Below, one piece after another: positions 2,316 to 63,128 of a stretch of DNA of 64,000 nucleotides; within the stretch, counting starts at the first letter, position 1; each line of letters begins with the position of its first letter. The notes below the pieces were generated by a model. The model saw only the letters and a list, made by a program, of their open reading frames with translations. It was not told the DNA's origin and searched no databases. The translations under genes were made by a program, and so were the position numbers. The DNA comes from a virus. The DNA is taken from IMG/VR virus record IMGVR_UViG_3300001866_000011, one strand, 5' to 3'.

Positions 2316-3415
2316 ATAGTATTACACTTAAAAATATATAAAGTTTTTGGCAATAGAAAGGAGAGTTTATGATTTTAAGATCTTTTCATAACAATAATTT
2401 AAACGATCAATGTCCATGAACATATTACACATTGGGTATGATTCTCCATAAGGAAGAAGACGATTACCATTATAATGTAATGGATTCATACACTTATATG
2501 ATGCTCCATTATTACAATTAATGAAATTGTGTGATCTTTCTTCATATACGAATATGCATCCTTTACATGGAATTTTATTTTCATCAATCATGATAATAAA
2601 GTAGTAGGTATAAAATTAACAAATTTCTTTATTAAATACATAATCAGTTTCTGGGTTGTATTCACATGGACAATTCTTAATAGTAATACAAAATGGATTA
2701 TTTTTTGTAATCATACACTTTGCATTCTCTTTATATGGGCAATTTGCTATCATATTATTCAAAAATCTTTTCTTCTTCCATAGTTAAATTATATCTTTTA
2801 ACTATTACTTTATCTTCATCGATATTAAAGATAAATAGTTTAGAATTATCTTCAGTTATATATTTATAAATTTCTTTCATAATTAAATCTCAACCAAATA
2901 AATAGAGTTCTTTGTCATTTGATGCTGGGGTTATAATTAGAGTGTTCCCTTCTTGTTTAGAAGTTAGAATTGTATTTGGATAATAATCTTCTAGAAAACA
3001 TTTAATACAACAATAATGTAACGATTCTATATCTTTATCTTCAAAGTTAAATGTTATCCAATGATCTTCAGGAAATCCATCAGAATCTAAATAACCAATT
3101 TTTTCACAGTTATCACAAATTAATACAGTTTTTTTCATGTAAATACCTTAATAATTACTCTTCATAAAATGGACATTTATAGCCAACATCACCATGTTCA
3201 TTACCATATAGAACAGTAGAACCTACGTCTTCTAATGTAATGTCACAAAAATATCTTTCATCTGTAACATCGCTTTCACATTCTATACAATATTCACAGC
3301 CATAACAAGATAATTCATTATATAAATTATATTCATTGTTAGGAAATGTAAATATTAATCCATTTGGACTTCTATAAGTTTCTTGTATAATCATAATTTA
3401 ATTAATAATCTTCTT

Positions 3416-5327: not shown

Positions 5328-6654
5328 GAATAATAGATTAGCGTGAAAAATAGATAAATGTTTGTATAGGGAGAGAAGATGGGAATGTTAATAGATTTAT
5401 AAATTCAAAGATTGTGTTTTAACAATTATATCATTATCATTGATATTATCTAACTTAAGTAATTCAGCGATAACATAAGTATTATTATAAAGCATTTTAA
5501 GATTTATAGTATTGTCTTTATAGTTATAATATATTGAAAAATTACTTACATCTTCATAACTATTAGTTTCACTTAAATCTCCATCGTTTTGATTTCCAAA
5601 ACATAAAATATTACAATTTTTAAACTTAATGATAGGTTTTACGCGATCAAGTTCACTTAACATTATATATAATTGAATATTATAATATATAAATATTTCT
5701 AAAGAAAAAGAGGAAGTGGTTACAGATATACTATATTAATTCTAAATTTTTAGTTCCATACAATTCAATATATTCAGATAAATCATTCATTCTAGACATG
5801 AATCTTTTTTCTGCTTCTGTACATAATTCCTTTCCAACATCATCACATTTATTATAACCTAATAGATTTCCATCTCTTATAAAATTATATTTTGCATATT
5901 CTATTCGATTATAAATACTATTTAGTTCTTCATGATATAGTCTAAAGGCAGTTTTTGGATTAAATAATCGTTTATGTAATCTTACAGTTATATTGTCAAA
6001 ATTAATAGTATCAAATTCTTCAATCATTTTCTAGATTTCTTTTTCTTTGGGCTGCATTCAACTTTATTTTTAATAACACCACACACTTTTTCAGCGTTCT
6101 TTCCATACTTTCTACGATTCTTTTTAAGACAATCGTCAAAATTATTAAATCCAGCAAATGGCATATGTATTAATTAAGTTATTACTGTATAAAAATATTA
6201 ATAGTTATTTTTACATTTGCCATGTAGTAAGTGAGGGTGCAATAAGTTTAACTAAATCAGAACTGCTATAACTAGATCGTAGTATTCCAATTCTATCATC
6301 TTCTAATTTATATATAAACATACTGAAACGTGTTGTTATAGTTTTAGAATCACAATGGACTGTGTTATTGCGTTTAAATTTAACAAAATCTAACCAATTT
6401 TTAGATTTCTTGTTTTCAAGAATTACATCATATGAAAAATGAATATTGGTATCATTTACTTTACACAATATATTTTCAATTTTATTATATTTTATACTAG
6501 AATAATTTAAATTTACTATCTGATCTAAATCTATAACCAATGCACATAGTGAGTAATCCATATAATTAAAATAAATTATCATAGATGGATTATCATTTTT
6601 AGAATCTGGAACCTCATTACTATGATATGTTACATTACTAAACATCCTATCCTC

Positions 6655-7221
6655 TCATCTCTTCTGAACTATCCAACTTGAATCTACTCTATGGACTGGA
6701 GATTCATTCCAATCATCAGGAACAAATTCATTGAAATGTTTTTTCTCAAAAATTTCACATGCTTCTTTTACTCCAGGTTCGTGAATGTTTCCATTAGTTC
6801 CAAATTTATCATGAACCATCATAACTCCACCAGAAATAAGTTTGTTCCAATATATTTCAAGATCTTTTAAACAACCTTCTATAGAATGATCACCATCAAT
6901 AAATACAAATTCAACGGGTTCTTTTATTTGATTATATATTACAGGATCATACGAAGAACCTTGTAATAGAGTAGTATTATGTTTTATAGATTCTATATCA
7001 TTAAGTATATCTTTTATTCTTATATCAATTCCATAAACTTGTTTTTTAGAAGATTGAACAAATCTAGACTTTACTCCGGTTGTAATATATGTAAGACTCT
7101 TTCCTCTAAAACATCCAATATTAACTATTGCATTTTCAGGACTACATTTTCTACTTAATGTTTCCAATGCAATTCCTTCAATCGGACTTAAGCAACCAAC
7201 AACGCCATTATCTAATTTCAT
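6655..7221 (-). CDS. Class I SAM-dependent methyltransferase (Methyltransf_24-like)
   Basis: VNIGCFRGKSL motif I; FVFIDGDHSIEGCLKDL...LISGGVMMVHD. Start moved to the ATG at 7221 (GAGGA RBS, avoids overlap with the radical SAM gene). Confidence 0.85.
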   Translation of the reverse strand: MKLDNGVVGCLSPIEGIALETLSRKCSPENAIVNIGCFRGKSLTYITTGVKSRFVQSSKKQVYGIDIRIKDILNDIESIKHNTTLLQGSSYDPVIYNQIKEPVEFVFIDGDHSIEGCLKDLEIYWNKLISGGVMMVHDKFGTNGNIHEPGVKEACEIFEKKHFNEFVPDDWNESPVHRVDSSWIVQKR

Positions 7222-7240
7222 AATATCACTATTTTCCTCT

Positions 7241-7966
7241 TCATACGGGACAGTTTTTACAGCATGAATTGAAGTCAAATTTCTCATCATCTGTAATAAT
7301 ATATTCATCGGTCATTCTGATACAACATGGATGTAATCTTCCAAGATAATCATAATAGAGTGAATTTATATACCATTCACATGTATCAATTCTATTCTTT
7401 ATTTTTATGTTGAATCTATTATATACATTCTTTGCTTGATTATGCAATTCATCATAATTTTTATATTCACATCCATACCAAACTTCCATAGGAATTATAT
7501 CAATTGGTATAGAATATTTATCAGCAAATCCTGTAACTTTATTTATATCATCTTTTGTTTGATCTGATAATACACAATTAATTCTTACATTGTATCCATT
7601 CTTTTTTGTATCTAATATGTGATTAATTGTTCTTTGATCATGATAATCAGATTCATTTAATTTATTGATAGAAAACATAACATTATCAAATTCTCCAACA
7701 ATTGGAAATGAACCATTTGTAATGGTCATGATATTCTTAAATCCATAGGTTCTACCAATTTCAGATAATTTCACAATATCTGGATGCATAAATGGCTCAC
7801 CTAATCCTTGAATTTTAAGAATATCAAAATGATCACTTTTATGATAATCTAAAATTTTAAAAAATGTTTCAATAGAAATATCACCAGAGTAAGACGAATC
7901 TCTTGAGCACGTTTTACAGTTCTTATTACAGTTTCTAGTTGGTTCAATTTGCAGTATATCAGTCAT
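7241..7966 (-). CDS. Radical SAM protein with C-terminal Cys-rich (SPASM/twitch-like) tail
   Basis: EPTRNCNKNCKTC (CxxxCxxC), GLGEPFMHP, ITNG; C-terminal CEW...GRLHPCC...CCKNCP. Confidence 0.88.
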   Translation of the reverse strand: MTDILQIEPTRNCNKNCKTCSRDSSYSGDISIETFFKILDYHKSDHFDILKIQGLGEPFMHPDIVKLSEIGRTYGFKNIMTITNGSFPIVGEFDNVMFSINKLNESDYHDQRTINHILDTKKNGYNVRINCVLSDQTKDDINKVTGFADKYSIPIDIIPMEVWYGCEYKNYDELHNQAKNVYNRFNIKIKNRIDTCEWYINSLYYDYLGRLHPCCIRMTDEYIITDDEKFDFNSCCKNCPV

Positions 7967-7983
7967 AAATAAAAATCCTCTTT

Positions 7984-8970
7984 CTATAATCCTTCATAAA
8001 TTGAATAACCAAATATCCATTCATAAAATTTCCTAAAATACCATCCAGTATATGCTTGGTTTATTTCATTTTGAATAGTATCATTAATTGGTTTAACTCG
8101 ATCTTTCATATAGAATATCTGAATCAATCCGAGAATACTTATAAGAATTGCTTTAATTACAAGTTTGATATCTTTAAATCTCCATACCCAAATCATCATT
8201 GTAGCAAGTCTTAAGGGTATCAATACTAATCTGTTTTTAAATGATAAATATCTATTTATTATAGTATTACCATTTTTAATATAATAATACACACCTTTAT
8301 TTACATTACGTTGTTTTGGAGAATACAAGTGTATAGGTTGCACATTCTTCTCAAATAGAACATCATGCCCTCTTGAAAGAATATTTAATGCTGTATCTGA
8401 TTCATTCCAATAAATTCCAAATGATTCATCATAGCCACTAAAAATATCAGTATTATATAAAGCACATGCTCCAATATAATCATACACTCTAAATGGATTT
8501 CTTGGTAATGATTTCAAATTAATATGTGTATTTAATGCAAATTTGAAATCTGTTTGTGGGATTTTATTTTCAGGACCTCTTACATTACATGCGACCATTC
8601 CAACATCTTTTTTACTTTTAGCAACTTCGACAAGTTTAGAGATACTATTAGTTTCTTGTAATATACAATCGTCGTCCAACACGAGAATATATTTAGCATG
8701 ATGATCATATTTAGCAATCCAAAATCCACGATTAAGAGTTTGCATTGCAGTAAATTTCGAATGTGGCATTATCTCATAGAAGAAATCCCATTTACACTGA
8801 TTTTCATATTTATCTTTTAAATATTCTTGTGTTCCATCATTACTACAATTATCAATAACAATAATCTCTTTGTTTTGATAATCTTGTTTATAAATTGCAT
8901 CAATATTCTGTCTTAATATATCAAGGCGATTCCAAGACGATATAACACAACATACCAGATCTTCTTCCAT
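7984..8970 (-). CDS. Glycosyltransferase family 2
   Basis: VISSWNR...EIIVIDNCSNDGT, ILVLDDD (DxD), FGIYWNESD. Confidence 0.9.
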   Translation of the reverse strand: MEEDLVCCVISSWNRLDILRQNIDAIYKQDYQNKEIIVIDNCSNDGTQEYLKDKYENQCKWDFFYEIMPHSKFTAMQTLNRGFWIAKYDHHAKYILVLDDDCILQETNSISKLVEVAKSKKDVGMVACNVRGPENKIPQTDFKFALNTHINLKSLPRNPFRVYDYIGACALYNTDIFSGYDESFGIYWNESDTALNILSRGHDVLFEKNVQPIHLYSPKQRNVNKGVYYYIKNGNTIINRYLSFKNRLVLIPLRLATMMIWVWRFKDIKLVIKAILISILGLIQIFYMKDRVKPINDTIQNEINQAYTGWYFRKFYEWIFGYSIYEGL

Positions 8971-10076
8971 TATAGCACGTCCTTTCTAGCAACTTTTCTC
9001 CATACTTCTTCTATTTTTGGAATAACTACATCATATGTATAATTTTCATTAGCAATTCGCAATGCATTTTTAGATGTTGCATTTCTATAAGAATCAATTA
9101 ACATATCTTCCATCACCTGAAAATATTCATGTCCTGAATTTACAACAAACCCACCACTTCCTATAACACTATTCATTGCATTATAATACGGCGTAGTGTG
9201 ACTTATGCAAGGTAAACCATGTAACATTGCTTCTGCTAATACCATACCATAAGTTTCACCATCTTTTCTACCATGTGCATAAACATCTAATGTATTGAGA
9301 AATGGAGAAACCTCATCTTGATACGGAATAAATTTAATGTTTTTTATATTTAGATTTTCTGCTTGTTTTTTGTATAAATCACACCCATTTAATACAAACA
9401 TCATTACATCATCACATTCTTTCTCTAGTTTAGAAAACGCATCTAATTGAACAGGAGAAAACAATCCATTATCATTTCTTTGATGGAAACCAAATACAAT
9501 GGTATCTTCTGAAATTCCAAGTTCTTTTCTTAAGTTTTTATCTGATGTCTTCTTTACTGGAACTGGTATTACTGTAGTTTTGCTACGCCTTCCACTATGT
9601 CCTTCGGCAAATCTAAACAACCATTGATCCCTTAACCATTCAGAATTTAAAATGTGATGTTTTACTCCTGGAAATTTAACATATGGTGGAAATACTGTAA
9701 ATTCACATACTTTATAATCATCTTTAAAACTTTGAAATGGCTCTTCTTTCCATCCAAAATTAGTAATTTGAATTACATCATATGGAGTTTTATTATTAAC
9801 TTTATTAAATTTATGCCAAAAATCAGACCAATTATTATTAAGTAGATTTAAAATTCTAAAAGGTATCCTCTCATATCTAGGCTTTACTTTGAATTTAATT
9901 ATATTAACATTATTATCCAATAGATATTTTTTTCTATCTGGAGATCTCATTTTATCTGTCGTATAATAATCAATTTGAAATTCATCTTTGTTTGTTTCAG
10001 CGGCCATAATCTGAAGAAACTTTTCAGTTCCACCATAAAATAAACCATTTTCTCTGATGATTGCAACTCTAATCAT
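8970..10076 (-). CDS. Glycosyltransferase family 4 (GT-B)
   Basis: GGTEKF N-terminal loop; DVYAHGRKDGETYGMVLAEAMLHGLPCI (Ex7E motif). Confidence 0.9.
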   Translation of the reverse strand: MIRVAIIRENGLFYGGTEKFLQIMAAETNKDEFQIDYYTTDKMRSPDRKKYLLDNNVNIIKFKVKPRYERIPFRILNLLNNNWSDFWHKFNKVNNKTPYDVIQITNFGWKEEPFQSFKDDYKVCEFTVFPPYVKFPGVKHHILNSEWLRDQWLFRFAEGHSGRRSKTTVIPVPVKKTSDKNLRKELGISEDTIVFGFHQRNDNGLFSPVQLDAFSKLEKECDDVMMFVLNGCDLYKKQAENLNIKNIKFIPYQDEVSPFLNTLDVYAHGRKDGETYGMVLAEAMLHGLPCISHTTPYYNAMNSVIGSGGFVVNSGHEYFQVMEDMLIDSYRNATSKNALRIANENYTYDVVIPKIEEVWRKVARKDVL

Positions 10077-11086
10077 GAATTACTCCAAAATTTACTAATT
10101 CTGTATCTAGCATGAGATTTTAAATAGTTATATATTTCTAACATTCCTTTTAAAATGTTCATATAATTACCTTTTTCAAGATTGTATTTAAACCCTTGAT
10201 ACATAATTTTAAAATATTTTATTTTATGACTTTCATTTTGTCTAATGTAAATTAAATTTTCTTTAAACAATACACATTCTTTCTTGCAATAATTTATCAA
10301 TTCATCTGACCATATATCAAGATCATAATATCTCATATAATTTTTCTTAACTAATTCAAACAATTTGTTCTTCATTGATTTATCAATATTAAGAATATCT
10401 TCATTAATATTATCTGGATAGTGATATTTTTGTATTTCTGTATAAATTACATTAGAATAGTTATTAAGATAGTCTAAATTTATTCTATAAGTTGGATAGC
10501 CTTCTTTTATTGATAAACATTTATAATAAGATTCTTTAATATTTATGTAATCTGTATTACACATCCCAAAATGAAATAATGGATAATTTACTATTACATA
10601 GTTTTCTTCTCTTCCAATTGGAATTTTATCTTCATGAACATATTCATTACCATGATAATTAATTCCCTTATCTATAAATGCAATTCCTTGTGTATCTTTT
10701 AGCCTATCTTTATTTACTAAATTTAATTTATTACCAACATGCCACCATTTACAATAAATAGCATCATTCCAATCATTGTTGTTTAGATAATTGATTAATT
10801 CTTCACTTAAAATTTCATCAGCATCAATAACAATAAAATGAGATGCTTTTGGTCTTCCCCTATCTAAAAGAAACTGTCTACGATCTTTATATGTTTTTAT
10901 TTCGGGACAAAACTCTTCATAGAATACAATTACATTATCTAAACTTTCTAAATATTCACGCGTTCCTTCTCCTTTATTAGATCCATCTAATACTAAAACA
11001 TAATCTACACATCTCAATAAATTAGGAAGTGAGTATTTAATAAAGTGAGATTCATTATAAGTAATCATCAAACCTATTTTATACAT
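10073..11086 (-). CDS. Glycosyltransferase family 2-like (GT-A)
   Basis: MITYNESHFIKYSL...VLVLDGS...GT, FIVIDADE, VHE, LFHFG. Confidence 0.8.
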   Translation of the reverse strand: MYKIGLMITYNESHFIKYSLPNLLRCVDYVLVLDGSNKGEGTREYLESLDNVIVFYEEFCPEIKTYKDRRQFLLDRGRPKASHFIVIDADEILSEELINYLNNNDWNDAIYCKWWHVGNKLNLVNKDRLKDTQGIAFIDKGINYHGNEYVHEDKIPIGREENYVIVNYPLFHFGMCNTDYINIKESYYKCLSIKEGYPTYRINLDYLNNYSNVIYTEIQKYHYPDNINEDILNIDKSMKNKLFELVKKNYMRYYDLDIWSDELINYCKKECVLFKENLIYIRQNESHKIKYFKIMYQGFKYNLEKGNYMNILKGMLEIYNYLKSHARYRISKFWSNS

Positions 11087-11229
11087 AAAATTAATTATAA
11101 TGTTTAATCTCTAAAGTATATAATTATATGTATTTATTAAAGTCAATATTTATAATATACAACCAGTTAGTTAAACATTTAAGCATTTATTCTTCTTTAT
11201 ATACTGGAAAACTATTATTTCTTAATTGT

Positions 11230-12898: not shown

Positions 12899-13108
12899 TT
12901 ATTCGTTTTCTGTAAGTTTACAATCTCCATCTGGGTTGCTAGACGATGAAGATGAAGACTCGCCCTTACACATCATTTTACATTTGATAGCAACATTACG
13001 TGCTGCTTCTCGCACTCTACCGTAGAAACTCATACTAGGATTTGCAAGATCTTGTTTTAGTTCTTCACTTGCATCATCTGTAGCCATTTTTCTGTCCATG
13101 ATTGACAT
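12899..13108 (-). CDS. Hypothetical protein with poly-Ser tract
   Basis: Leaderless start about 25 nt below a TTTATATA box; 69 aa. Confidence 0.55.
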   Translation of the reverse strand: MSIMDRKMATDDASEELKQDLANPSMSFYGRVREAARNVAIKCKMMCKGESSSSSSSNPDGDCKLTENE

Positions 13109-13231
13109 GATGTAGTAATATACGCTTTAATTGTATATAAATGTAATAGGAGAGAAGAAGGATGGTAATGGTTATAGATCTATTATACCAATCACTATCT
13201 TTTTAAACATGTAAAACATATAGAATATAGC

Positions 13232-13255
13232 ATGAAAGGAAGAGAAGGTAATTAA
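13232..13255 (+). CDS. Micro-ORF 1 of peptide array: MKGREGN
   Basis: ATG AAA GGA AGA GAA GGT AAT TAA; TTTTTAAA box about 25-30 nt upstream. Confidence 0.45.
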   Translation: MKGREGN

Positions 13256-13256
13256 C

Positions 13257-13304
13257 ATGGGTGAAGAGAATAATACAATTGGATTTGATGAGGAGACTAA
13301 TTAA
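13257..13304 (+). CDS. Micro-ORF 2 of peptide array: MGEENNTIGFDEETN
   Basis: Open from ATG to AAT TAA; starts 1 nt after the previous stop. Confidence 0.6.
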   Translation: MGEENNTIGFDEETN

Positions 13305-13305
13305 A

Positions 13306-13353
13306 ATGAAAGAAACAACTAACATTTCAAACTATGATGAACTTGGTAATTAA
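13306..13353 (+). CDS. Micro-ORF 3 of peptide array: MKETTNISNYDELGN
   Basis: Same length as micro-ORF 2; GAGGAG lies just upstream inside the previous ORF. Confidence 0.6.
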   Translation: MKETTNISNYDELGN

Positions 13354-13355
13354 TC

Positions 13356-13421
13356 ATGGAAACTATTCAACTTGATCTATTGAAGTTTATTCCTGCATTG
13401 TTTGATGAAGAAACTAATTAA
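13356..13421 (+). CDS. Micro-ORF 4 of peptide array: METIQLDLLKFIPALFDEETN
   Basis: Ends FDEETN like ORF 2 but with synonymous codons (GAA GAA versus GAG GAG). Confidence 0.6.
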   Translation: METIQLDLLKFIPALFDEETN

Positions 13422-13438
13422 ATTCTTATTTTCGTGTT

Positions 13439-13633
13439 ATGTTTAAAATTTTAATCATTTGTTTAGTCATGTTATTATTCATTTCACCAGTTTCATGTAG
13501 TTATATTACTAATACAACATCGCTATACGATAGTAACAATACAGTGATTACAAACAATGTATCTATTACACTTGGAGAAGGAAGTTACTGTAGTGTTGTA
13601 AGAAATGGTGTTATAGAAGAAATTAAAGGATAG
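13439..13633 (+). CDS. Small secreted protein with signal peptide and three N-glycosylation sequons
   Basis: MFKILIICLVMLLFISPVSC; sequons NTT, NNT, NVS. Confidence 0.6.
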   Translation: MFKILIICLVMLLFISPVSCSYITNTTSLYDSNNTVITNNVSITLGEGSYCSVVRNGVIEEIKG

Positions 13634-14877
13634 TTTTAGAGAAGATTGTTTAATATTTTTCTACTTCATAATTATTTTTATCGATTTCATAAGTTCCAGA
13701 TGTAATAATATATTCGTCTGATGAATAATAACATATATCTTCGTCCCATTCAAATGAATATCCTCTTTTTGTAATCAGATTTTCTATTTTATAAGGTATA
13801 TTGTCTAAAAGTTTTATCATTTTATTATATATTTTAGAATAATGTTTAAAATCTATATCATGGTTACTTATATATTCAAATGGATCTCGTTTATTATCAA
13901 GAATATTAAATACAAATGAATATTTATTTTTATTTGGACCTATGAATGATATATCGCAATAATTATCAATTATTGAAAAATCTATAATATTGAATAAATT
14001 TTTAATCTTTAAAATTTCTTTATTATAATAATTAGAAATAGTATTCCAAGACTTACAAAAATATTCAACATCTCTTTTAATATTTTTTGGTATCATTACA
14101 TCGTTTACATTCATAGTAGATTATTTTTAATTTTAACGATTTCTAATTTCTTTCCAGTTTGATTTTCTATAAATTCATCTATTTCTTTTGTAGTTTTAAA
14201 ATCATCAATATTAACATTATAATGATCTTCAAAATAGATAGTTTTCTTTTGCTTCGTTGGAGAATTGATATTATAATTATCTATAAAGTCAGGATCAATC
14301 TTTGTTCTTTTCATTAAGGTATCTCTTCATTATATTTTACTAATGGGACAAACATACAAAATGCAATTACTAATATTATTGAAGAAAATATAGATTTTGG
14401 TATATATAAACATATTGTAATTATTATGAATAATATTACTTTTAAAATTCCTATGTTTATATCCATTATTCATCATCTGATAATTCTATTTCTTCAATGT
14501 CAATATGATCCCATTCAAATCCACCATTTACATTATCATTATATTCATCAAATAGATCTTGTGCTTCCGTTTCAGAATCTGCTTCAAATTCATTCACTTG
14601 TTCAGCATACGTTGTAAAAATATAAACTTTATTTGTCATTGTAAAATCCTCTATACAAATATTAACTGACACCATGCATAATGACATGCAACTATCAGTA
14701 TAGCAACAATCATGGTTATAATCCACGTTATAATTGCACTTGTCGATGGATCTCCAGGCCTTGATCTATAATCCATAGCAGTTAATATCATTACAATTAC
14801 GCTTGGTACACATGCTAATATGGCTATCCCTTCAAAGAATTGAAAACTGTAAATTGAGATCATGATTTATTCTCTTC

Positions 14878-16330: not shown

Positions 16331-16404
16331 ACATAGTATTAGTTCTAAAAGATGATAATAGTTTCGGAAGAAAGGAGAAGATAATAGATCTATTATTAGA
16401 TACA

Positions 16405-38357: not shown

Positions 38358-41198
38358 TATGAAAGAAGTAAAAGTAAAATACAGTATATAAAGATAGAGG
38401 GAAAAGAGAAGAATAAGATGGAGAAAAACTTAAGTTAATTATATATTATATCAGTAATATTTTCACAAATGTATAATTGATCATCTTCATCTAGGTTATC
38501 AATAATACATTTTATTTTATTAATAGCGTCTTTTCTTTGATATTGTAGATCTATAGTATCTATTATTATGTTTTTAATATCAATGTATAGTTGTTTACAA
38601 TTAATATTACATGTAGTTGAATTCAATATATAATTATAAACATTTTGTGTTATTTCATCGTAATTTAATTTCATTGTTATTCACCTATATCAATATCAGT
38701 ATATGGAATTTCTAGTTCATGCAATTCCTTAACTTGTTGGTATTGACTATTATAAACTTGAACACATAATCCACTAATATGATAACAATCTGGATATGGA
38801 TCTAATAATTCTTTCATTTGTTTAATTGTTAATGTCATAAATAATATTATAGAAATCCTTTGATTTGATTTATTGTTTGAATCATTGCTGTATATTCTGG
38901 ATATTGTGATGGAAGTATAATCATCTGGAATAATGTAAACACAAAAAATCCCATTACTATTGCTGCAACAAAGCCTCCCATTAATCCAAAGATCAAAACC
39001 CATTCAATAGAATTGTATTTGTAACTATTTTTATATTTGATATATCCTATAGCCATAAAAATAGCAAAGGTTAGAATTGTTGTAATTAATATACATTCTG
39101 TTTGTAACACTATGAATTGTTGATAATACAAATTCATTTGATATACTTGTGAGACTGTCATTCCGAGTTTATCAGCAATTAAATTAATTTCATTTTCTAA
39201 CATATTTAATACCTCATAAATAACACAAAAAATCTTTTACATTACGATCATTAAGTAATGCTTGCATTTCATCTTGATAGAAATGATCTGGACATTTTTC
39301 TGGTCGTTCTAATTCATCTGAATATTTTGCGTTTCTTTCATAGTTATGTAATTTACACTCTCCTCCAAATTCAGATGAAACATAAAATACACAGTCATTG
39401 TTCATTAATATGTCATTATAACACGGCCTTACTTCACGGATTTTTCTACTTGGAATTTTATAAACATTCATTTTAACCCTCTCTTAATTTTTTCATAATT
39501 CTTCGCCATTCCGGATCGTTTTTAAGTTTTTCTTCATGTTCAGCATATTTAATTCCATCGCGTTTTACAATTTGTTGTTTATTTTCGATTACATAAATGG
39601 TATTTTCATCAGTCTTCGTAAAATTACATTCCATAGAAGTATATTCTTCACAGCATCCACTCCAACTTAATTCTCCAATAAACTTACAGTGATCACAATA
39701 ATGCAATGAATGATAATCATCAATAACGGGACATTTTACAAATATTCCTCCTGCAATATTATGACAAACATCAACATTCATTTAAATCACCTTTTGTATT
39801 AATCATATTCTGGACATATATCACAATAATGTTTTACCAAACACATAAAACAGAAATCCTTACATGGCACAAGATCAGTTACATGTTTATACATATTATT
39901 TATTTCATCTATATGTAGATCTTTCATCTTACTCATTTTATTCATCTCTTATCATCGGCATTTGTTGTCACGAGGATCATCCATTAATTAATTTTAAACC
40001 AATTCCAACCGTTCTAGCAGTTATTTGTTTGCGTTGAAAACTTATACCGGTTTTCATAAATCCAATTGAACACAAATTCCTTACTATAGGTTCATCAATA
40101 GGATCTAGATCTAATCCATCTTTATATTTTAATAAAACCTTAAGATCTCGTTCTTCGTTATATTCCATATTTATCACTTTTTTATCTTCATTTTCGGAAG
40201 TGTCAGCATATCCTCTAAAATAACCAATCAAAAATCCAATAATAAGCATAACACTTACTAAAATATCAATTTCAAAACCAGAAATAATCATCGTAATCTC
40301 CTTATTCTTCTCTTATTACTGGAAGTTTTTCGAAATTGGCCCAATTGGTAGGCTTGTAATGGTCTACGATTTCTCGGTTGTTTTCTTCAGTGTTTAGTGG
40401 GTAGTTTTTATGTGCTAGGTAATATCGAATTACTTCCATGATTGTCCAGGCTTTATCTGCTGGTTTATCATGACCTACACCCCAATTTGATGAATAACCA
40501 CCATTATTATTTAGATTAGGAAACCATAACTCTTTTAATATATTTACAATGTTATGCCATATGTAATTGTTTGGAGTAGTTCCTTTTACACCACCATTCT
40601 TTTCACAGTCCCAAACAAGTGTGTTCCATATTTGTTCAAAATCTCCAGTTCTAATACGTGCATATAACTCAAGAGAATCCCTTATAATATATGCCTGTTC
40701 ATCAGTAAGTTCAATAATCATAAAGATATATTCCTAATTTATTTAAATAACCACTATTAACTTACTCTTCTGTTCTGTAGCCACCAATACATTTCATAAC
40801 AAATTGCAAATACACAATCTGCTATAAATGCAACAATTAAAATCATTAAAAATTCCATCATAATTTAATCACCTTCATTGAATGGAACAAAGAATTCACC
40901 ACGTTGCTGTGCTTGATAAACTCTACGTGCATCACACTCTTTATGTTTATCAGCATCGTCTACCATTTTGTTAAATGTTTCATTGTTTATTTCTCTGCCT
41001 GGATGCATTAATTCTAGCAATGATTTATCTTCTTTAATTTGTTCTAGTGTCTTTTCATAACTGCATTTCATATACTTTGTTTCTTTACCATCACCTTCAT
41101 AATGATCACAATAATCAGCACAATCAGCAACCCATACATAATGTCCAGTTGCATGACACATTACACAAGGTTGTATCATTAATTCTGTGATTTTCATT

Positions 41199-56700: not shown

Positions 56701-59466
56701 CATTTTTCTCACGCATCGAAATTATTATTAACTATTACATCCTATAGATATTCATGGCAAGAAAAGGAAGGCAGTTTAAAATGAACGGTGTGACAAATGA
56801 TAAGCGTGGTAACATTGGATGTCCATCACCTGATGAGATGCTACAATGGGGAGACGAAGATCCATTTTTTGAGAAAACATATTACGCTAACGAACCTGGA
56901 TACATGGACGATGATGATTGGTAGGTAAGAGAAGAAGAGATAAACGATTATAGATCCATTATAGGACATAAAAATTATGGGATCAATTGCGAGAAGAATG
57001 AAAATTTTGCATGTAGAATTATATGATCAATTTGAAAATGGTGATAGATTAGAACGGGTATCTTTGAGGAGTGAAACATGCATAAGGTATACTGTAAAGG
57101 CATTAGCACATTATAAGAGAGTGTTTTTAGGTGGGTTTTTATCTAAAGAAGACATTAAAAATGGCTGGGGAAGATTAGAACCATATAAATACTGCTCTAT
57201 TTGGTGGTGGAAAGATTAAATTTATAGATCCATTAAAGGAGAGATCTTTATGAATCAAGATATTGAACAGGTGACTACTTATTTACGTAAAATTACTGAA
57301 AAATCTTTAAAGGAAGGTAAAGGTAGTTTTACAGAAGAAGAACTAGAGTTAACAATTGAAACACTAAACTATCTCATCGATGTATTTGAAGATGCTAGAA
57401 ATTCATACATTAATGAGTTATTCATGAGAGGAGTAGAAAAAGATATATCATTTAAGAAAGAATTAGAGATATTATCATGACTATGAAGGATGTATATTAT
57501 ATAGTTAGAAAGGTTACTCATCATTATTATTTAAAGGATCAATTTAAATCAGATGCTGATATTTTAGAAGAATTTAATAAGAATATATCTAATATTGTAA
57601 ATTGTGTAGAACCCGATGATGTAATAAATGAGATTCAAATAATTAAATGTGTTGAAAATGATACTGATAAAGGTATAGTTACCAAATCTGATATTATTAT
57701 GTGTGAATTTATCTAAAGGTATTATTATGACTACAAAGAAAAAGAGTAGATTCTATACCAAAGCGGGCAATAATCTTAAAAACAGGAATATTAGGTTTAA
57801 AAGGTTTTTGGGTGACAGTGCAGATACAACATACATCAGGTGGCTTGTTATTGGTATGCCTGTAATTGACGGCGTAAGGAAAACAGGCAATGGTCTTGAA
57901 AGAGAAATATGTTTAAGTTACTGGTAATGGGAGAGAGGAAAGATAAATAGATTAATATGAAAACTAAAATAGCAATTTATAAGGATGTAATAGATTCGGC
58001 TATTGGGGAGCAATTTGATATATGTGACTTAAATGAATGCATTAAATTATTACCAAGGTGGGAATTTAATAGAGACTATTGTATATATGGAGAAATATAT
58101 TTAGATAAAAACAGAAGACCATTTAAATTATATAGTAATGTAAGTGATAATATTATAAGATATGGTGTATTGATTACTGTAAACAAAGCAATAGGTTTAA
58201 TTTTAGAACATTCAAAAACAGATGAAGAACTAGAAGAAAGATTAAGTTATCTAGGAACATGATGGGAAGTAAATTATAGATCTATCATGACCAGTTAATC
58301 TATAATCTATTTTATCACAATGAGGATCTATTTTAATAATTAAGTTATATCAATCTACATTATAATATATAACTGTCTATATAATAGTTATATGGTTGTC
58401 TGATAGAAAGTATTAAATATACATACAACCTATATTGGTATAGGTGAGTATAATGGCAGTGAGTTATACTAAAGAAATGTATAAATTTGAAAAAGTTAAT
58501 GAAACATTTAAGGAATGTATCAAAGACGCATCTTATTACTATGGTTATAATAATTCATTTGTAAAAGAATTATGTTATTTATCTAATTTATATGAAAATA
58601 TTTATGATGAATTGGTTAAGAAACAAAAGGAAGACTTTGATAATATATTGTTAGATACTAAAGAAGCAAATAAGGCAACAATAGATTTTATGTTATTGTA
58701 TGCTAATAAGATAAAGAATGGTGAAAAAAAGCAATAGAGTGTATCATGAAAGTAAGAGATTTGAAGAAGATACTAGAAGATGAATTAATTAATGATGATA
58801 TGGATCTTAAGATAGTGTATTTAGTTAATAATTCAGAAGAAAATAAAGATATAACATATTTTGATGAAGGTAATAGAGAAGAAACAATGAATGTATTTAG
58901 AATTGAAATTAACAAGTATAAAAATGTTTTTAGAATTTTAAATTAGGAGTGAGGAGTAGAAAGTATTAAATAGATATATGACCTATATCTAGTAGTGAAG
59001 TATTACAATTGAAAGGAGAGATTAAATTATGAAAACTAAAGTTATTAGCGAAAATGAAATTATTGAAAGTGCTAAAAGTATCGCTGAAGATATGATTAAC
59101 ACTTATGAAAAGAATAAAGATGATGAAGATTATTTAATTGAAGATTTTTGCAGTGGAGATTCTTATATCTGTATATACTACGGTAATATATTAGATATTC
59201 AACCATCTGGAAAACTATATACAATGTGGACAACTAACCAAAGTAATGAGGATGAAAGTAATGATTCTTTATTTTGGGAGACTGTAAATAAAATTCTGTC
59301 AGAGAAATTTTTATGGGTAGAATCTGGTCAGGGAGATGCTTGCGATATTATGATATGTGGAATGATTCCGGGAGAAGAGAAGCGGTAGGAAGTATTAAAT
59401 ATTTTAACGTCCTATATTGTATGGTAGTAAGACAACATACTGAACTAAAAACAGGAGAGATAAAAC

Positions 59467-59928
59467 ATGAACAAGATTGATTTGATTAAGGATATTGCTG
59501 ATGACTTGTATTTTGATGAGACTATCAGAGATGGTATATACAAGGCAAGAGAACAGGAGAAGTATCAAGACCTATACATGGTTGCACACGGTGGGGATTT
59601 CTTACTCAATGATATGAGATATAAGATGATCTATGATATCATCAATCAGTTGAATGAGTGGGATAAGGATGAGATTATTAACGATTGTGTTGATGATCTT
59701 GAGTTACTTGATGGGCTGATCCCTATCTATACATACGATCTTACAAAGTGGCTAAACTCGTCTAATTCAAGATATTCATATGTTGATGAGGCTGTCGCAG
59801 AATTAGGACATGGAGATAGTATACTGGATGATATTAAGCAGGGATATCTCCAGGAACTACTAGAGGTATATTACCTGATGAAAGAATGGATAGACGAAAA
59901 CAGTGAGGAAGAGAACGAGGAAGAATAA
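59467..59928 (+). CDS. Highly acidic protein, Ocr-like DNA mimic candidate
   Basis: About 40 D/E versus about 13 K/R by manual count; LDGLIPIYTYDLTKW resembles the Ocr-like D..vp.Y..dl pattern; acidic tail EEENEEE. Confidence 0.5.
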   Translation: MNKIDLIKDIADDLYFDETIRDGIYKAREQEKYQDLYMVAHGGDFLLNDMRYKMIYDIINQLNEWDKDEIINDCVDDLELLDGLIPIYTYDLTKWLNSSNSRYSYVDEAVAELGHGDSILDDIKQGYLQELLEVYYLMKEWIDENSEEENEEE

Positions 59929-62582
59929 AAGAGATAAACTATGCCGATTTTTATTTATGGTAAGGTCATGTTAATGGAGTTTAGCATTAATATGATCTTA
60001 CTGTATGGGATAATGCTATTTGGAATGTTTAAGAGTGTGGGAGTATAGGAGAATTTTTAATTATGGGATTGATATTTAAACGAGAAACTAAACTAGAAAA
60101 AGTATTATCCGAAAGTGATATTGTAAGAGGAGAGATACTGTATAATCTTAAAAATATAGAGATTATGATAAAGAGTATAAAAGATATAGAAAATCTGTGC
60201 GATGTAAAGAGAAGTGTTGATGTAATAGATAAAAAAGTAAGAAAAGCATATATGGGTAAGTAGATAGGGGAGAGGAGAATAAAGATAAGTTAATGGATCT
60301 ATTGATTGAGAGATTTTTATGATAGAAGAATTGTGGTATTATTTTAAATCTTGCGACGTCACGGTTGATGTAGATGGTATAAACGAAAAAGATAAAATTA
60401 AATTACAAAAAGCATTATATAGAAAGTTGAATAGAATTAATAAATTTTCTAGGTGATGCCGATATTATGGATTATAATGATAGGATTGAAAAACTGGAAT
60501 CTAAACTATTTAATGGTATTATTGATTATGATAATCTTGGTAGAGCGCGAAAGATGAGGAGTAAGATAAATAAAATTAAATGTAAGACTAGATTTTATAG
60601 TGAATGGTAGAGATAGGAAGAGAAGGGATTTATTTTATTTAGTCGTTTTATTATATTTATTTTATAAAAGTATATAATGATAGAAACATTTATCTATTTT
60701 GACAACCTATATCTATGTATGACAGAGATTAGGGAATTGTTTAGTGAGTATAGACTTAAAATTGTAAGGTCTAAAAAAGAATCAGAAGAAATTGGTTATA
60801 CTGGATGGTCATATGACGATGTTCAGTCTGTTGTATTTGTAAACAGAGAAACTGGTGAGTGTGATTATTCTGTATACAAGGATATCACAGTGATGTCAGA
60901 GAAGAAAGATGGTCTAATTAAATTCTATCAGGTGAGTGAAGGACTCCAGGATATTGTAGGAGTAGCATTGAATGAATTAATGGCTATTTATATTTGAGAA
61001 AGAGAAAGGATATTGGAGTATATTAAAAGGAGTAAGTATAAAATGATTGAATTGAATTATGATATGGATACATTTATCCAGTTAACAAAGAAAGATAAAT
61101 TCAACATTATAATTGATAATGAGGGCGTGAGAATTGCAAAATATGATGAAAAAGAAAAATGCTATCCATCAAAAGATTCATACCGAATTAATTGGGGTGA
61201 TTTACATGAAATATTATCATATTCACCTAAAGCAGAACAGTAGTTATTTATATTATTAATTATAGATTAAAAATTTTATAAAAGCATTAACATGGTTATT
61301 AAGTCAACTACAATTAGGACAGTGCTAGAACAGATGGAACTAGGCAATTATAAACAGGCTAAAGAGATATTAGAGTATGAATATAAAAGACATATAACAA
61401 GTGAAAAGAAAAAGAAAGGGTTGTTGTAGGAAGATGGTAATTTATTATGGGTGATATTGTTAGAAGAGATACCAACAAATTTAGAAAGATATCAAATGAG
61501 TTAAGTGATGTATTAAGAAATAATTACGATACTGAACCAATAGATACTTTGGACTTTTTAGAATTTATAGAGATTATACAAAAGTGGTGTGAATGTAATT
61601 TAAGAATTCTTAAAATGAGAGAGGATATACAAAATTCTATATGTCACGATTGCATTCATGATTATACAGATTCAACAGGTGCATGGTTATGTGAGTATGG
61701 AATGATTTGTTCTAATGGTTGTATTAAATTTGAAAGAAAAACAGAAGAATAAGAGAAATTTATAGATCTATTGTGTGAGATATTATCATGGTCATACTAT
61801 ATATTGAGAAGATTGATGGTAAGGATAGATTCACTATTGAAATGCAGGATATTTATGGAAAGTTGAAATGGGAGAGTTTTAATAGTGATGAGATATTAAA
61901 TTATCATATGAAACTACATGATATTAAGATCGATGAGGTGAGAGTAGTATAAGGGAAAGAGGGATAGATTTTATTTTTATATTTTTTATTTTATTGTAAC
62001 TTTTTTATTTTAATTGTTTTATTTTAGTTTATAAGGATAGATAGTTATTTATACTTATGTGACCTATAGTATAGTAGACAATTAAAGGAGTGAGATAATT
62101 ATGGTAGAGTGTAAGGATTGTGGGTGGTTAGTATATGATGAGGAGGATAAGAAGTATATCTGTGAGAGACACAACTGTGTGTTATCTGTATATAGGTATG
62201 ATGGAACACCTATCAGAATATCATGGTGTGGAATAGATGACTATGTAAAGAAAACATGGGAATAAGGAAGGAGTAGAAAGTATTAAATATTATTACGTCC
62301 TATAGTATGTATACAGTAATTGGGAGAGATGAAAATGGTTAGACGTAGAGAAGTATCTGAAAGTATGTATAGCAGATGGTGTATTAATTGTAATAAATTG
62401 ATTAGGGTGTGTAGTTATACTAATAATGATACCACGTGCTTACTTGATTGTGATGATAATTGCTTTCCGTATTGTATAAGACAAGGTGTTGATTTATTTG
62501 GAAAAGAAAATTATCCAAAAGATAGAAATTTTAAATGATTTAATTAATTTAATTGATTTATTATAGATTGGAGAGATGAGAG

Positions 62583-63128
62583 ATGAGTGACGAAAAGATA
62601 TCTAAACAGACAACTGATGATAACCTGACTATCTTTAATATTAAGACGCTTACGATGATAGGGGCGTTGATGATGGCAGTTGTTAGTTTTTGGTTGTCAT
62701 TCACTGCAGTATCAGGATTAGCAGGTAGATTGGGTATAGAGCCTTCGTGGTTATTTCCTGTTATGATAGATGGGTTTCTTGTGCTTACATTGATATGGAG
62801 ATTTAACGACAAAAATGAAATATGGCCTCAAATCACAATGCTATCATATGTTATCATTAGTGTGGCATTGAACTTTTATGCACATGATGGAAACGTAGCA
62901 AGTGGGGTATGTGCTGCTTTGGCTCCTATAACATTAATGGCAGCAAGTGAAGTATCAGCCAGGTTAGGTGTGGGAATAGGTAAAGAGGAGATTATGGTAA
63001 GGATAGAGGAGGAAGGGAAAGGAAGAGGTGGTGTTAATAGATCTATTAAAGACAGTGGTGTAATTAAAAGCAGACCTGTAATGATGAGAGATGCCAACGG
63101 GAGATTTTGCAAGAGGGTAGAGGAATAG
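62583..63128 (+). CDS. DUF2637-like multi-pass membrane protein
   Basis: SFWLSFTAVSGLA...WLFPVMIDG...SVALNFYAH...ALAPITLMAASE; C-terminal RDANGRFCK. Confidence 0.7.
   Translation: MSDEKISKQTTDDNLTIFNIKTLTMIGALMMAVVSFWLSFTAVSGLAGRLGIEPSWLFPVMIDGFLVLTLIWRFNDKNEIWPQITMLSYVIISVALNFYAHDGNVASGVCAALAPITLMAASEVSARLGVGIGKEEIMVRIEEEGKGRGGVNRSIKDSGVIKSRPVMMRDANGRFCKRVEE

What the first reader, a model, noticed from the sequence alone, without database searches (positions are those of the whole stretch)
13232..13633. Tandem array of four micropeptide genes sharing a C-terminal (F/Y)DE(E/L)(T/G)N-stop, followed by a secreted protein
Seen: a gap in the ORF track contains four back-to-back ORFs, each starting 1-2 nt after the previous stop: MKGREGN, MGEENNTIGFDEETN, MKETTNISNYDELGN and METIQLDLLKFIPALFDEETN. 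All four end AAT TAA. The TAATTAA junctions recur at 49, 49 and 68 nt. All four ATG-to-TAA lengths are multiples of 3. ORFs 2 and 4 keep FDEETN while using different synonymous codons (GAG GAG versus GAA GAA), which points to selection on the peptide. Both 15-mers carry an N-X-S/T sequon at position 5-6. A TATA-like box lies about 25-30 nt upstream of ORF 1, and a signal-peptide protein (13439-13633) closes the operon. Inference: this is a diversified peptide cassette with variable N-termini and a fixed acidic C-terminal docking motif. Possible roles are decoys or inhibitors of a host C-terminus-recognising protein, RiPP-like precursors for the radical SAM / methyltransferase / glycosyltransferase operon 2-6 kb away, or signalling peptides. 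I know of no described archaeal virus system like this.
Basis: partly seen in the sequence, partly recalled or inferred. Interest (0 to 1): 0.8.

Follow-up and report, generated by a model that had tools for sequence, protein, structure and literature searches.

The report
Four coupled micro-genes in a virus
A groundwater virus carries, behind one of its own standard promoters, four back-to-back mini-genes (7, 15, 15 and 21 codons) that look translated; three of them end in the same acidic six-residue tail, but the array changes fast between strains and its function is unknown.

Summary
ORF1 is 13232-13255, ORF2 13257-13304, ORF3 13306-13353 and ORF4 13356-13421. The gaps are 1, 1 and 2 nt, and all four end AAT TAA. 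A 64-aa signal-peptide ORF follows at 13439-13633.

A chain of four micro-ORFs is not unusual by itself: 59 of 100 shuffled genomes contain one. Three other features are beyond chance:
- The 21-nt FDEETN-stop module occurs twice, against 0.01 expected.
- TAATTAA occurs four times in 190 nt, against 0.08 expected.
- Codon usage in all four frames exceeds 98-100% of control micro-ORFs, including in the variable N-terminal halves.

A promoter of the virus's main class sits at 13200-13215 and places the ORF1 ATG at the canonical +16. SD-like sequences lie inside the last codons of ORF1 and ORF2.

My reading is a translationally coupled mini-cistron array heading a small accessory transcription unit. 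A 65%-identity relative lacks the unit. In a ~95% relative the array is the most diverged, indel-rich part of the locus. The proposed RiPP link to the radical SAM/GT operon has no support. Function is unknown, and an acidic C-terminal docking motif remains plausible but untested.

The parts
13174..13183 (.). Palindrome ATAGATCTAT in the divergent control region between the 69-aa gene (minus strand) and ORF1. It is a genome-wide operator-like motif.
   Evidence: 13 exact copies in the window against 0.32 expected. It recurs upstream of class-A promoters.
13127..13141 (-). Class-A promoter (TTTATATACAATTAA) of the divergent 69-aa gene 12899-13108.
   Evidence: 3 mismatches to the consensus TTTATATACTGTAAA, with the ATG at +18. 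The same promoter is conserved upstream of the homologue in relative L014.
13200..13215 (+). Class-A-type promoter TTTTTAAACATGTAAA. The ORF1 ATG lies 16 nt after it, which implies a leaderless or very short-leader mRNA.
   Evidence: A two-block pattern occurs 11 times in the genome against 0.6 in shuffles. Six of them precede a called gene start and at least two more sit just upstream of genes. This is one of the 11.
13232..13255 (+). ORF1, 7 codons (MKGREGN). Its last codons GAA GGT AAT carry an SD-like AAGGTAA 7 nt before the ORF2 ATG.
   Evidence: Codon score is 1.06 bits/codon, and no control micro-ORF reaches it.
13257..13304 (+). ORF2, 15 codons (MGEENNTIGFDEETN). GAGGAGA in its last codons is an SD 9-10 nt before the ORF3 ATG.
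   Evidence: Codon score is 0.83 bits/codon, and only 0.2% of controls score as high.
13306..13353 (+). ORF3, 15 codons (MKETTNISNYDELGN).
   Evidence: Codon score is 0.73 bits/codon, and only 0.4% of controls score as high. The GTG-initiated 30-aa upstream extension of this frame scores negative.
13356..13421 (+). ORF4, 21 codons (METIQLDLLKFIPALFDEETN). It contains a PIP-box-like QLDLLKFI, which is an untested lead.
   Evidence: Codon score is 0.47 bits/codon, and only 1.7% of controls score as high.
13284..13304 (+). 21-nt shared 3' module, copy in ORF2 (FDEETN-stop).
13333..13353 (+). 21-nt shared 3' module, diverged copy in ORF3 (YDELGN-stop).
   Evidence: p=0.0075 against the ORF4 copy.
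13401..13421 (+). 21-nt shared 3' module, copy in ORF4 (FDEETN-stop). It differs from the ORF2 copy by two synonymous G>A changes that also remove the SD-like GAGGAG.
13439..13633 (+). 64-aa ORF with a signal-peptide-like N-terminus, three N-x-S/T sequons and two Cys. It is the last cistron of the unit and has no SD and no promoter of its own.
   Evidence: Codon score is 0.28 bits/codon. It has no homologue beyond itself and no family hit.

Best explanation
The window is part of a complete 127-kb virus genome with terminal repeats, 27% GC, from groundwater. The host is probably archaeal, given PCNA, a family-B polymerase and TATA-type promoters about 28 nt from the ATG.

A promoter of the virus's main class at 13200-13215 fires rightward, sharing a palindromic operator-like site with the divergent 69-aa gene. 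It makes a roughly 400-nt mRNA that starts at or a few nt before the ORF1 AUG. Ribosomes start on ORF1 (7 codons) and are handed on through ORF2, ORF3 and ORF4 by termination-reinitiation across gaps of 1-2 nt. SD-like sequences built into the last codons of the upstream cistron help this hand-on. The 64-aa secreted protein is the last cistron.

ORF2-4 are paralogues made by tandem duplication of a unit. Only its 3' 21 nt, encoding (F/Y)DE(E/L)(T/G)N-stop, is kept. The peptides are made, and the acidic C-terminal hexapeptide is their working part: a short linear motif that docks on a host or viral partner. The N-terminal halves are free to vary. The whole unit is an accessory, fast-evolving 'moron'-type insertion.

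Shown: the anatomy, the promoter class, the coding-like frames, the repeat statistics and the strain variability. Inferred: the transcript ends, actual translation, coupling, and the docking function (the least certain step).
For: Promoter:
- The pattern TTT[AT][AT]A[AT]A-N1-2-TGTAAA occurs 11 times in the genome against 0.6 in shuffles.
- Six copies precede a called gene start and at least two more sit just upstream of genes.
- The copy at 13200 puts the ORF1 ATG at +16, as for bona fide genes at +16 to +18.

Coding signal:
- The micro-ORFs score 1.06, 0.83, 0.73 and 0.47 bits/codon. Real genes score 0.37+-0.10 and control micro-ORFs score -0.18+-0.30.
- The fractions of sense-strand off-frame controls scoring as high are 0, 0.002, 0.004 and 0.017.
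- The variable N-terminal parts alone score 0.49 bits/codon, P about 0.001 or less.
- ORF2-4 are the three best-scoring ORFs of 21 aa or fewer in all intergenic DNA of the genome.
- Minus-strand ORFs at the same place score negative.

Translation signals:
- AAGGT, AGGAG and GGAGA are 7-12-fold enriched upstream of this genome's genes. They occur 7-10 nt before the ORF2 and ORF3 ATGs.
- Gaps of 1-2 nt fit termination-reinitiation, which in Haloferax and E. coli needs overlaps or very short distances (PMC10666635, PMC6728339).

Shared C-terminus:
- The 21-nt module occurs twice against 0.01 expected.
- Its two differences are both synonymous, and they destroy the SD-like GAGGAG in the copy that has no closely following cistron. 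This argues for selection on the peptide.
- Only 6 of 249 genes end AATTAA.

Strain comparison:
- A ~95% relative keeps the unit.
- The listed indels in ORF1 (+3 nt) and ORF3 (+9 nt) are multiples of 3.
- The 22-nt insertion after ACT in ORF2 would give FDEETVN-stop.
Against: - There is no RNA, ribosome or peptide evidence. No RNA run clearly holds the stretch.
- The array is absent from the only moderately distant relative, L014 (p253 65% aa). Homology there stops at about 13140.
- No other locus with this architecture or motif was found in IMG/VR.
- In the ~95% relative (run X3) the array is the most diverged part of the locus: 25 substitutions plus 34 inserted nt in 215 nt. The flanks show 3-7% divergence. 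That fits weak constraint as well as diversification.
- The substitution list was truncated, so I could not confirm that the frames are intact in that strain.
- Peptides of 7-21 aa with no homologues, no partner and no known motif leave the function open.
- Part of the C-terminal similarity (E-G-N, E-E-T-N) coincides with SD-like sequence.
Confidence: 0.45

Rival explanations
1. The ORFs are translated but act only in cis. In this reading the four mini-cistrons form a uORF-type leader that relays ribosomes or tunes how many reach the 64-aa gene. They may also stabilise the mRNA. The repeated 3' module is then an SD + double-frame stop (TAATTAA) + restart cassette, and the peptide sequences are incidental.
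For: - p64 has no SD and no promoter of its own, so it depends on the ORF1 promoter.
- SD-like GAAGGT and GAGGAG lie inside the conserved C-terminal codons.
- TAATTAA gives stops in two frames and TGATGA gives two more.
- The region is highly variable between strains.
- A 16-bp A-U/G-U helix could pair the ORF1 AUG region with the p64 AUG region; the fold z-score is -2.2.
Against: - The ORF4-p64 gap is 17 nt, and about 20 nt almost abolishes reinitiation in tested systems (PMC10666635).
- 40% of internal cistrons in this genome lack an SD anyway, so p64 needs no special relay.
- The last module keeps FDEETN while losing the SD-like sequence.
- The variable halves are also coding-like.
Confidence: 0.25
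2. The region is not translated. It would be a fast-evolving 5' UTR or spacer carrying a repeated nucleic-acid motif, TGATGA-N6-TAATTAA. TAATTA is a 6-bp palindrome and could be a protein-binding site. The ORFs and their codon bias would be by-products.
For: - Chains of four micro-ORFs arise by chance in this AT-rich genome.
- Similarity between units is limited to 21 nt.
- The array shows strong indel variation in a close strain and is absent in L014.
Against: - The frame-specific codon signal switches frame exactly at each junction, and control ORFs rarely reach it.
- The ORF1 ATG sits at the canonical distance from a class-A promoter.
- There is no Rfam match.
- There are no CUGA D boxes, and the 49/68-nt spacing is wrong for C/D-box sRNAs.
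- The spacings of 49, 49 and 68 nt are not helically phased.
Confidence: 0.15
3. The peptides are RiPP-type precursors. They would be modified by the radical SAM, methyltransferase and glycosyltransferase genes at 6211-11086.
For: The only support is the presence of a radical SAM gene and glycosyltransferases within 2-7 kb, plus the N-x-S/T sequons in the two 15-mers.
Against: - The radical SAM protein is 241 aa and matches only the generic core, with all NCBIfam hits far below cut-off and no SPASM domain.
- It sits between a rhamnosyl-O-methyltransferase-like gene and GT2/GT4 genes, which makes it a glycan operon.
- That operon is on the other strand, under other promoters, with unrelated genes in between.
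- The peptides have no leader or recognition sequence.
- Relative L014 has a GT2 gene but no array.
Confidence: 0.05
4. The peptides are secreted signalling peptides, with the C-terminal 5-6 residues as the mature signal. This would resemble arbitrium AimP or Phr peptides.
For: The conserved part is the C-terminal hexapeptide, there are several variants in tandem, and a secreted protein follows in the same unit.
Against: - None of the four has a signal peptide or hydrophobic segment.
- No receptor-like or transporter gene lies in the unit.
- No such system is known in archaea (my own knowledge).
Confidence: 0.05

Closest known systems
Insect mille-pattes / tarsal-less / polished rice (polycistronic smORF mRNA; PMC4612599)
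   Same: One RNA carries several tandem ORFs of 11-32 codons. Most of them share one short conserved peptide motif (LDPTGLY there, (F/Y)DE(E/L)(T/G)N here), and the peptides are redundant paralogues.
   Different: That system is eukaryotic and has no sequence relation to this one. Its motif is not at the extreme C-terminus. Its function (switching Shavenbaby processing) is proven, while here nothing is tested. This array is not conserved beyond close strains.
Translationally coupled operons using termination-reinitiation (Haloferax volcanii, E. coli; PMC6728339, PMC10666635)
   Same: Co-oriented cistrons are separated by 0-2 nt or overlap, the SD for the downstream cistron lies inside the end of the upstream one, and the first cistron is leaderless.
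   Different: Known pairs encode normal-sized proteins, often subunits of one complex. Here there are four consecutive cistrons of 7-21 codons.
Regulatory leader peptides and uORFs (e.g. TnaC, SecM, attenuator leaders; from my own knowledge)
   Same: They are short ORFs of about 14-25 codons upstream of a structural gene, and the conserved residues lie next to the stop codon.
   Different: Those are usually a single ORF with a defined downstream RNA switch or arrest motif. Here there are three paralogous copies in series, no recognisable arrest motif and no terminator or antiterminator.
Multi-peptide leaderless bacteriocin operons (e.g. aureocin A70 aurABCD; from my own knowledge)
   Same: Several related small peptides without leaders are encoded in tandem, and a small membrane or secreted protein lies nearby.
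   Different: Bacteriocins are cationic, hydrophobic and about 30-50 aa long. These peptides are strongly acidic (net charge -2 to -4), hydrophilic and 15-21 aa long.
Phage 'morons' (independent promoter-gene-terminator insertions between conserved genes; from my own knowledge)
   Same: The unit is a small, oppositely oriented transcription unit with its own promoter, inserted between conserved genes. It is present in some strains and absent in relative L014, and it ends with a small secreted protein.
   Different: A classical moron carries one ordinary gene, not a micro-ORF array.

Membership tests
RiPP precursor peptides | Precursor gene adjacent to or co-transcribed with a dedicated maturase (e.g. 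radical SAM/SPASM, YcaO, LanM) | tested here: not met
   The nearest radical SAM gene (7241-7966) is more than 5 kb away on the other strand, inside a sugar-modifying operon. It shows the generic core only, with no SPASM domain.
RiPP precursor peptides | Conserved leader or follower recognition sequence plus a variable core | tested here: inconclusive
   A conserved 6-residue C-terminal tail and variable N-terminus exist. However, 15-21 aa with no leader is atypical, and no recognition element is known.
Archaeal C/D-box sRNA | C box RUGAUGA and D box CUGA with C'/D' copies, about 12-nt guides and about 50-60 nt total length | tested here: not met
   UGAUGA is present three times, but there is no CUGA anywhere in 13232-13440 and the spacing is 49/68 nt. 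There is no Rfam hit.
Termination-reinitiation coupled cistrons | Co-oriented ORFs with overlap or a very short gap | tested here: met
   Gaps of 1, 1 and 2 nt. The criterion comes from PMC10666635.
Termination-reinitiation coupled cistrons | Downstream translation depends on upstream translation | not testable with these tools
   This needs reporter constructs.
Leaderless first cistron of a class-A viral promoter | TATA-like box + TGTAAA, then the ATG 16-18 nt downstream, with no SD | tested here: met
   TTTTTAAACATGTAAA lies at 13200-13215 with the ATG at +16. The pattern occurs 11 times against 0.6 expected, mostly at gene starts.
Arbitrium/Phr-type signalling peptides | Precursor with an N-terminal signal peptide, plus a cognate receptor gene | tested here: not met
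   The four ORFs have no hydrophobic N-terminus, and no receptor-like gene is nearby.
PCNA-interacting peptides (PIP box) | Q-x-x-[LIM]-x-x-[FY]-[FYWLI] | tested here: inconclusive
   ORF4 has QLDLLKFI, and the virus encodes PCNA. ORF2 and ORF3 lack the motif. My rough estimate is that the match has about a 1% chance per motif tried, and binding was not testable.
Polycistronic smORF peptide genes (mlpt/tal/pri type) | Several tandem smORFs on one transcript sharing a conserved peptide motif | tested here: met
   This is architecture only; there is no homology.
Polycistronic smORF peptide genes (mlpt/tal/pri type) | Conservation of the motif across species and demonstrated translation | tested here: not met
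   The array is absent from L014. No other locus was found. There are no RNA or peptide data.

The most novel reading that the evidence does not exclude
An archaeal virus encodes a rapidly diversifying family of directly translated 15-21-aa peptides. They are made from one leaderless, translationally coupled mRNA. Each uses the same acidic C-terminal hexapeptide, (F/Y)DE(E/L)(T/G)N-COOH, as a short linear motif to dock on and block or redirect a host or viral hub protein. ORF4 would add a PIP-like clamp-binding box. This would be a prokaryotic-virus counterpart of the insect pri/tal peptides.
Probability: 0.2. Interest if true: 0.75.

Novelty: new variant of a known kind. Interest (0 to 1): 0.45.

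Why it matters
Gene callers skip micro-ORFs under 30 codons, and they are almost unstudied in archaeal viruses. In this case sequence statistics alone give a fairly strong argument that such ORFs are real cistrons: a defined promoter, frame-switching codon bias and embedded SD-like sequences. If the peptides are made, they would be the first example I know of a tandem, motif-sharing micropeptide family in a virus of prokaryotes, and a compact natural model for serial termination-reinitiation. If they act only in cis, the locus is still a clear example of a multi-uORF leader in an archaeal-type system. Either way it argues for looking inside the 'gaps' of viral ORF maps.

Tried and rejected
Comparative searches:
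- Neighbours p154, p253, PCNA and p64 gave no relatives in IMG/VR. p64 and a p253 alignment gave none in JGI metagenomes. The p253 alignment gave none in GTDB genomes.
- Protein searches found only two relatives of p253 and two remote relatives of p154. p69 and p64 matched only themselves.
- The one usable relative, L014, lacks the array. The loci of the remote p154 relatives (L015-L017) have only same-strand genes after the homologue. I did not scan them for the array.
- The FDEETN-stop DNA pattern in IMG/VR gave 9 unrelated chance hits.
- A two-unit architecture pattern gave only a repeat in a giant-virus contig.
- I searched for the 22-nt insertion seen in strain X3. It has one exact hit, inside a baseplate-like gene of an unrelated phage contig (L019) with no other similarity. 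I treat this as an unexplained coincidence.

Alternative readings rejected:
- A GTG-started 30-aa ORF (13261-13353) shares IQLDL with ORF4, but its extension has a negative codon score.
- C/D-box sRNA: there is no D box.
- Tandem DNA repeat: TRF finds none.
- Known RNA family: none matches.
- Minus-strand ORFs 13203-13325 and 13172-13258 have negative codon scores.
- Bacterial-type intrinsic terminator: none found.

Function of p64 and neighbours: Pfam, PHROGs and the ESM Atlas gave nothing.

Expression: no RNA run clearly holds the stretch.

Full report
**Context.** The window is the minus strand of positions 41860-105859 of a 127,255-bp IMG/VR virus record with direct terminal repeats, rated complete. 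GC content is 27%. The same DNA is held by a groundwater metagenome, and near relatives occur in bioreactor and freshwater runs. The genome encodes a family-B polymerase, PCNA, a RuvB-like ATPase, thymidylate synthase and a glycosyltransferase/methyltransferase/radical-SAM operon. SD-like words (AAGGA, AGGAG, AGGTG, GGAGA) are 7-12-fold enriched upstream of genes, so the host is a prokaryote. PCNA and the promoter geometry suggest an archaeon.

**Observation.** Reading the sequence confirms four ATG-to-TAA ORFs:
- ORF1, 13232-13255, MKGREGN
- ORF2, 13257-13304, MGEENNTIGFDEETN
- ORF3, 13306-13353, MKETTNISNYDELGN
- ORF4, 13356-13421, METIQLDLLKFIPALFDEETN

The gaps are 1, 1 and 2 nt, and all four end AAT TAA. 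TAATTAA recurs at 49, 49 and 68 nt. A 64-aa ORF with a signal-peptide-like N-terminus follows at 13439-13633. The unit is a plus-strand island between minus-strand genes: a 69-aa gene at 12899-13108 and a 154-aa gene at 13650-14114.

**Is it more than chance?**
- The tiling alone is not. 59 of 100 Markov-2 shuffles of the genome contain a chain of at least 4 micro-ORFs with gaps of 3 nt or less, and the real genome has another such chain.
- The shared 3' end is beyond chance. The degenerate FDEETN-stop pattern occurs twice against 0.01 expected.
- TAATTAA occurs 4 times in 190 nt against a genome rate of 0.44 per kb per strand. Only 6 of 249 genes end AATTAA.
- No other peptide in any frame of the genome ends [FY]DE..N-stop.
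- Alignment against shuffles shows that similarity between units is confined to the last 21 nt: U2-U4 p<0.0005, U3-U4 p=0.0075, U2-U3 p=0.03. The 5' parts are unrelated. TRF sees no tandem DNA repeat.

**Promoter.** Upstream regions of genes with large gaps show two promoter classes.
- Class A is a pyrimidine-rich tract, then TTTATATACTGTAAA, then 16-20 nt, then an ATG with no SD. It is often preceded by the palindrome ATAGATCTAT.
- A relaxed two-block pattern (a TATA-like octamer, 1-2 nt, then TGTAAA) occurs 11 times in the genome against 0.6 in shuffles. Six copies precede a called gene start and at least two more sit just upstream of genes.
- One of the 11 is TTTTTAAACATGTAAA at 13200-13215, with the ORF1 ATG at +16. 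Bona fide genes sit at +16 to +18.
- The TATA centre is about 28 nt from the ATG, so these mRNAs should be leaderless or nearly so. That is a common archaeal arrangement, and distal cistrons then use an SD (PMC7531240).
- The palindrome at 13174-13183 has 13 copies in the window against 0.32 expected. It lies between this promoter and the divergent class-A promoter of the 69-aa gene at 13127-13141.

**Coding signal.** I trained a codon log-odds score on 106 genes of this genome.
- The micro-ORFs score 1.06, 0.83, 0.73 and 0.47 bits per codon. Real genes score 0.37+-0.10 and all micro-ORFs score -0.12+-0.34.
- Against the stricter control of off-frame micro-ORFs on the sense strand of genes, the fractions scoring as high are 0, 0.002, 0.004 and 0.017.
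- The variable N-terminal parts alone score 0.49 bits per codon, P about 0.001 or less.
- Base composition by codon position mirrors that of real genes.
- Among 348 intergenic micro-ORFs, ORF2-4 are the top three of 21 aa or fewer.
That extension intriguingly shares IQLDL with ORF4.
- Minus-strand ORFs at the same place also score negative.

**Translation signals.**
- AAGGTAA lies 7 nt before the ORF2 ATG, inside the last codons of ORF1.
- GAGGAGA lies 9-10 nt before the ORF3 ATG, inside the last codons of ORF2.
- Only a weak TGGTAA precedes ORF4.
- Gaps of 1-2 nt are in the range where termination-reinitiation works. About 20 nt nearly abolishes it in Haloferax and E. coli (PMC10666635, PMC6728339).
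- p64 is 17 nt downstream and has neither an SD nor its own TATA. However, 40% of internal cistrons in this genome lack an SD-like word, so this is ordinary.

**Peptide or nucleotide constraint?** Part of the conserved tail coincides with SD-like sequence (GAA GGT; GAG GAG). The two FDEETN copies differ only by two synonymous G>A changes. Those changes remove the SD-like sequence precisely in the copy that has no closely following cistron. This favours selection on the peptide, but it rests on only two substitutions.

**Comparative evidence is thin.**
- The flanking 69-aa and 253-aa genes have a relative at 65-69% aa identity on a 30-kb Logan contig (L014). There, homology stops at about window 13140 and the plus-strand island is absent.
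- Contigs of run X3 carry a ~95% relative. The 253-aa gene is 97% identical, the 69-aa gene about 97%, the intergenic promoter region about 94% and p64 92.5%. The micro-ORF stretch 13257-13471 has 25 substitutions and 34 inserted letters in 215 nt.
- The listed indels are +3 nt in ORF1, +9 nt spread over ORF3, a 16-nt duplication at the ORF2 start, and a 22-nt insertion after the ACT codon of ORF2. That insertion would give FDEETVN-TGA and bring a new AGGAG.
- These indels are compatible with kept frames and changed unit number. The substitution list was truncated, so this is suggestive only.
- X3 diverges completely to the right of p64. X4 covers ORF4 and the start of p64 at about 96% identity.
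- The island therefore behaves as a fast-evolving accessory unit.
- No other relatives or analogous arrays were found.

**Other readings tested.**
- No Rfam family matches.
- UGAUGA is present three times, but there is no CUGA D box and the spacing is wrong for C/D sRNAs.
- The RNA fold has a z-score of -2.2, with a long A-U/G-U helix pairing the ORF1 and p64 AUG regions. This is weak.
It sits in a glycan-type operon on the other strand, so the RiPP idea has no support.
- p64 and all neighbours are ORFans.
- No RNA run clearly holds the stretch.

**Conclusion.**
- The best-supported reading is a real, promoter-driven, translationally coupled array of four mini-cistrons plus a small secreted protein. 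ORF2-4 are paralogues that keep only an acidic C-terminal hexapeptide.
- I put about 0.7 on the ORFs being translated.
- I put about 0.45 on the peptides themselves being the functional products, acting through the tail, and 0.25 on a purely cis-acting leader.
- I put about 0.15 on a non-translated repeat.
- The closest architectural analogue is the insect mlpt/tal/pri polycistronic smORF gene (PMC4612599). The closest mechanistic frame is termination-reinitiation coupling.
- Membership in any known peptide family is not established.

Noticed in passing
window 13174-13183, 16384-16393, 26757-26766, 29188-29197, 48187-48196, 48597-48606, 55164-55862 (4 copies), 58276-58285, 61762-61771, 63037-63046: The palindrome ATAGATCTAT occurs 13 times in the window against 0.32 expected. 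It often lies about 30 nt upstream of class-A promoters. Four copies cluster in the 55.1-55.9 kb intergenic region, where gene orientation and GC skew flip. It could be an operator or origin-binding site for a viral DNA-binding protein.
   Followed up: partly
genome-wide; e.g. window minus strand 26706-26720 and 38378-38392, window plus strand 11196-11210: Class-A promoter TTTATATACTGTAAA, with a pyrimidine-rich tract upstream and an ATG 16-20 nt downstream without an SD. This suggests a large set of leaderless first cistrons.
   Followed up: yes
window about 58.4-63.5 kb plus strand (upstream of ORFs such as 59029-59388 and 59467-59928): A second promoter class: GAAAGTATTAAATA, then about 9-10 nt, then ACCTATA, followed by an SD-led ATG. 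It is used by the plus-strand gene block at the right end of the window.
   Followed up: partly
window 30194-30255 (+) and four other places in the genome outside the window, including both terminal repeats: A repeated element of about 60 nt begins TTTATATACTTTAAGATCATATAA... and is followed by a conserved stretch ending in a T-run. It has five copies in the genome, so it may be a repeated promoter plus small RNA, or a packaging- or replication-related repeat.
   Followed up: no
window 13368-13391 (ORF4 residues 5-12): QLDLLKFI fits the PIP-box pattern Qxx[LIM]xx[FY][FYLI] and resembles the bacterial clamp-binding QL[SD]LF. The virus encodes two PCNA-like proteins. IQLDL also appears in the off-frame reading of ORF2 DNA (13270-13284).
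   Followed up: no
L019:1381-1402 (IMGVR_UViG_3300030333_008815): The 22-nt insertion seen in the X3 strain variant (GTTAATTGATCAGGAGCATAGG) has one exact match, inside a baseplate-like gene of an unrelated 31%-GC phage contig. There is no flanking similarity, so this is either a coincidence or a captured fragment.
   Followed up: partly
window 2755-2880 (-), 55909-56040 (+), 63718-63843 (+), 40757-40861 (-): Further uncalled small ORFs of 33-43 aa in intergenic gaps have gene-like codon scores (0.26-0.57 bits/codon), some with an SD. They are probably real small genes.
   Followed up: no
L014:5116-5352: A 78-aa ORF in the relative shares a short SP(V/L)xCxYxT stretch with p64 (43% identity over 23 aa, pairwise E=1e-5). 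It lies in a different place and orientation, so it may be a distant paralogue family of small secreted proteins.
   Followed up: partly
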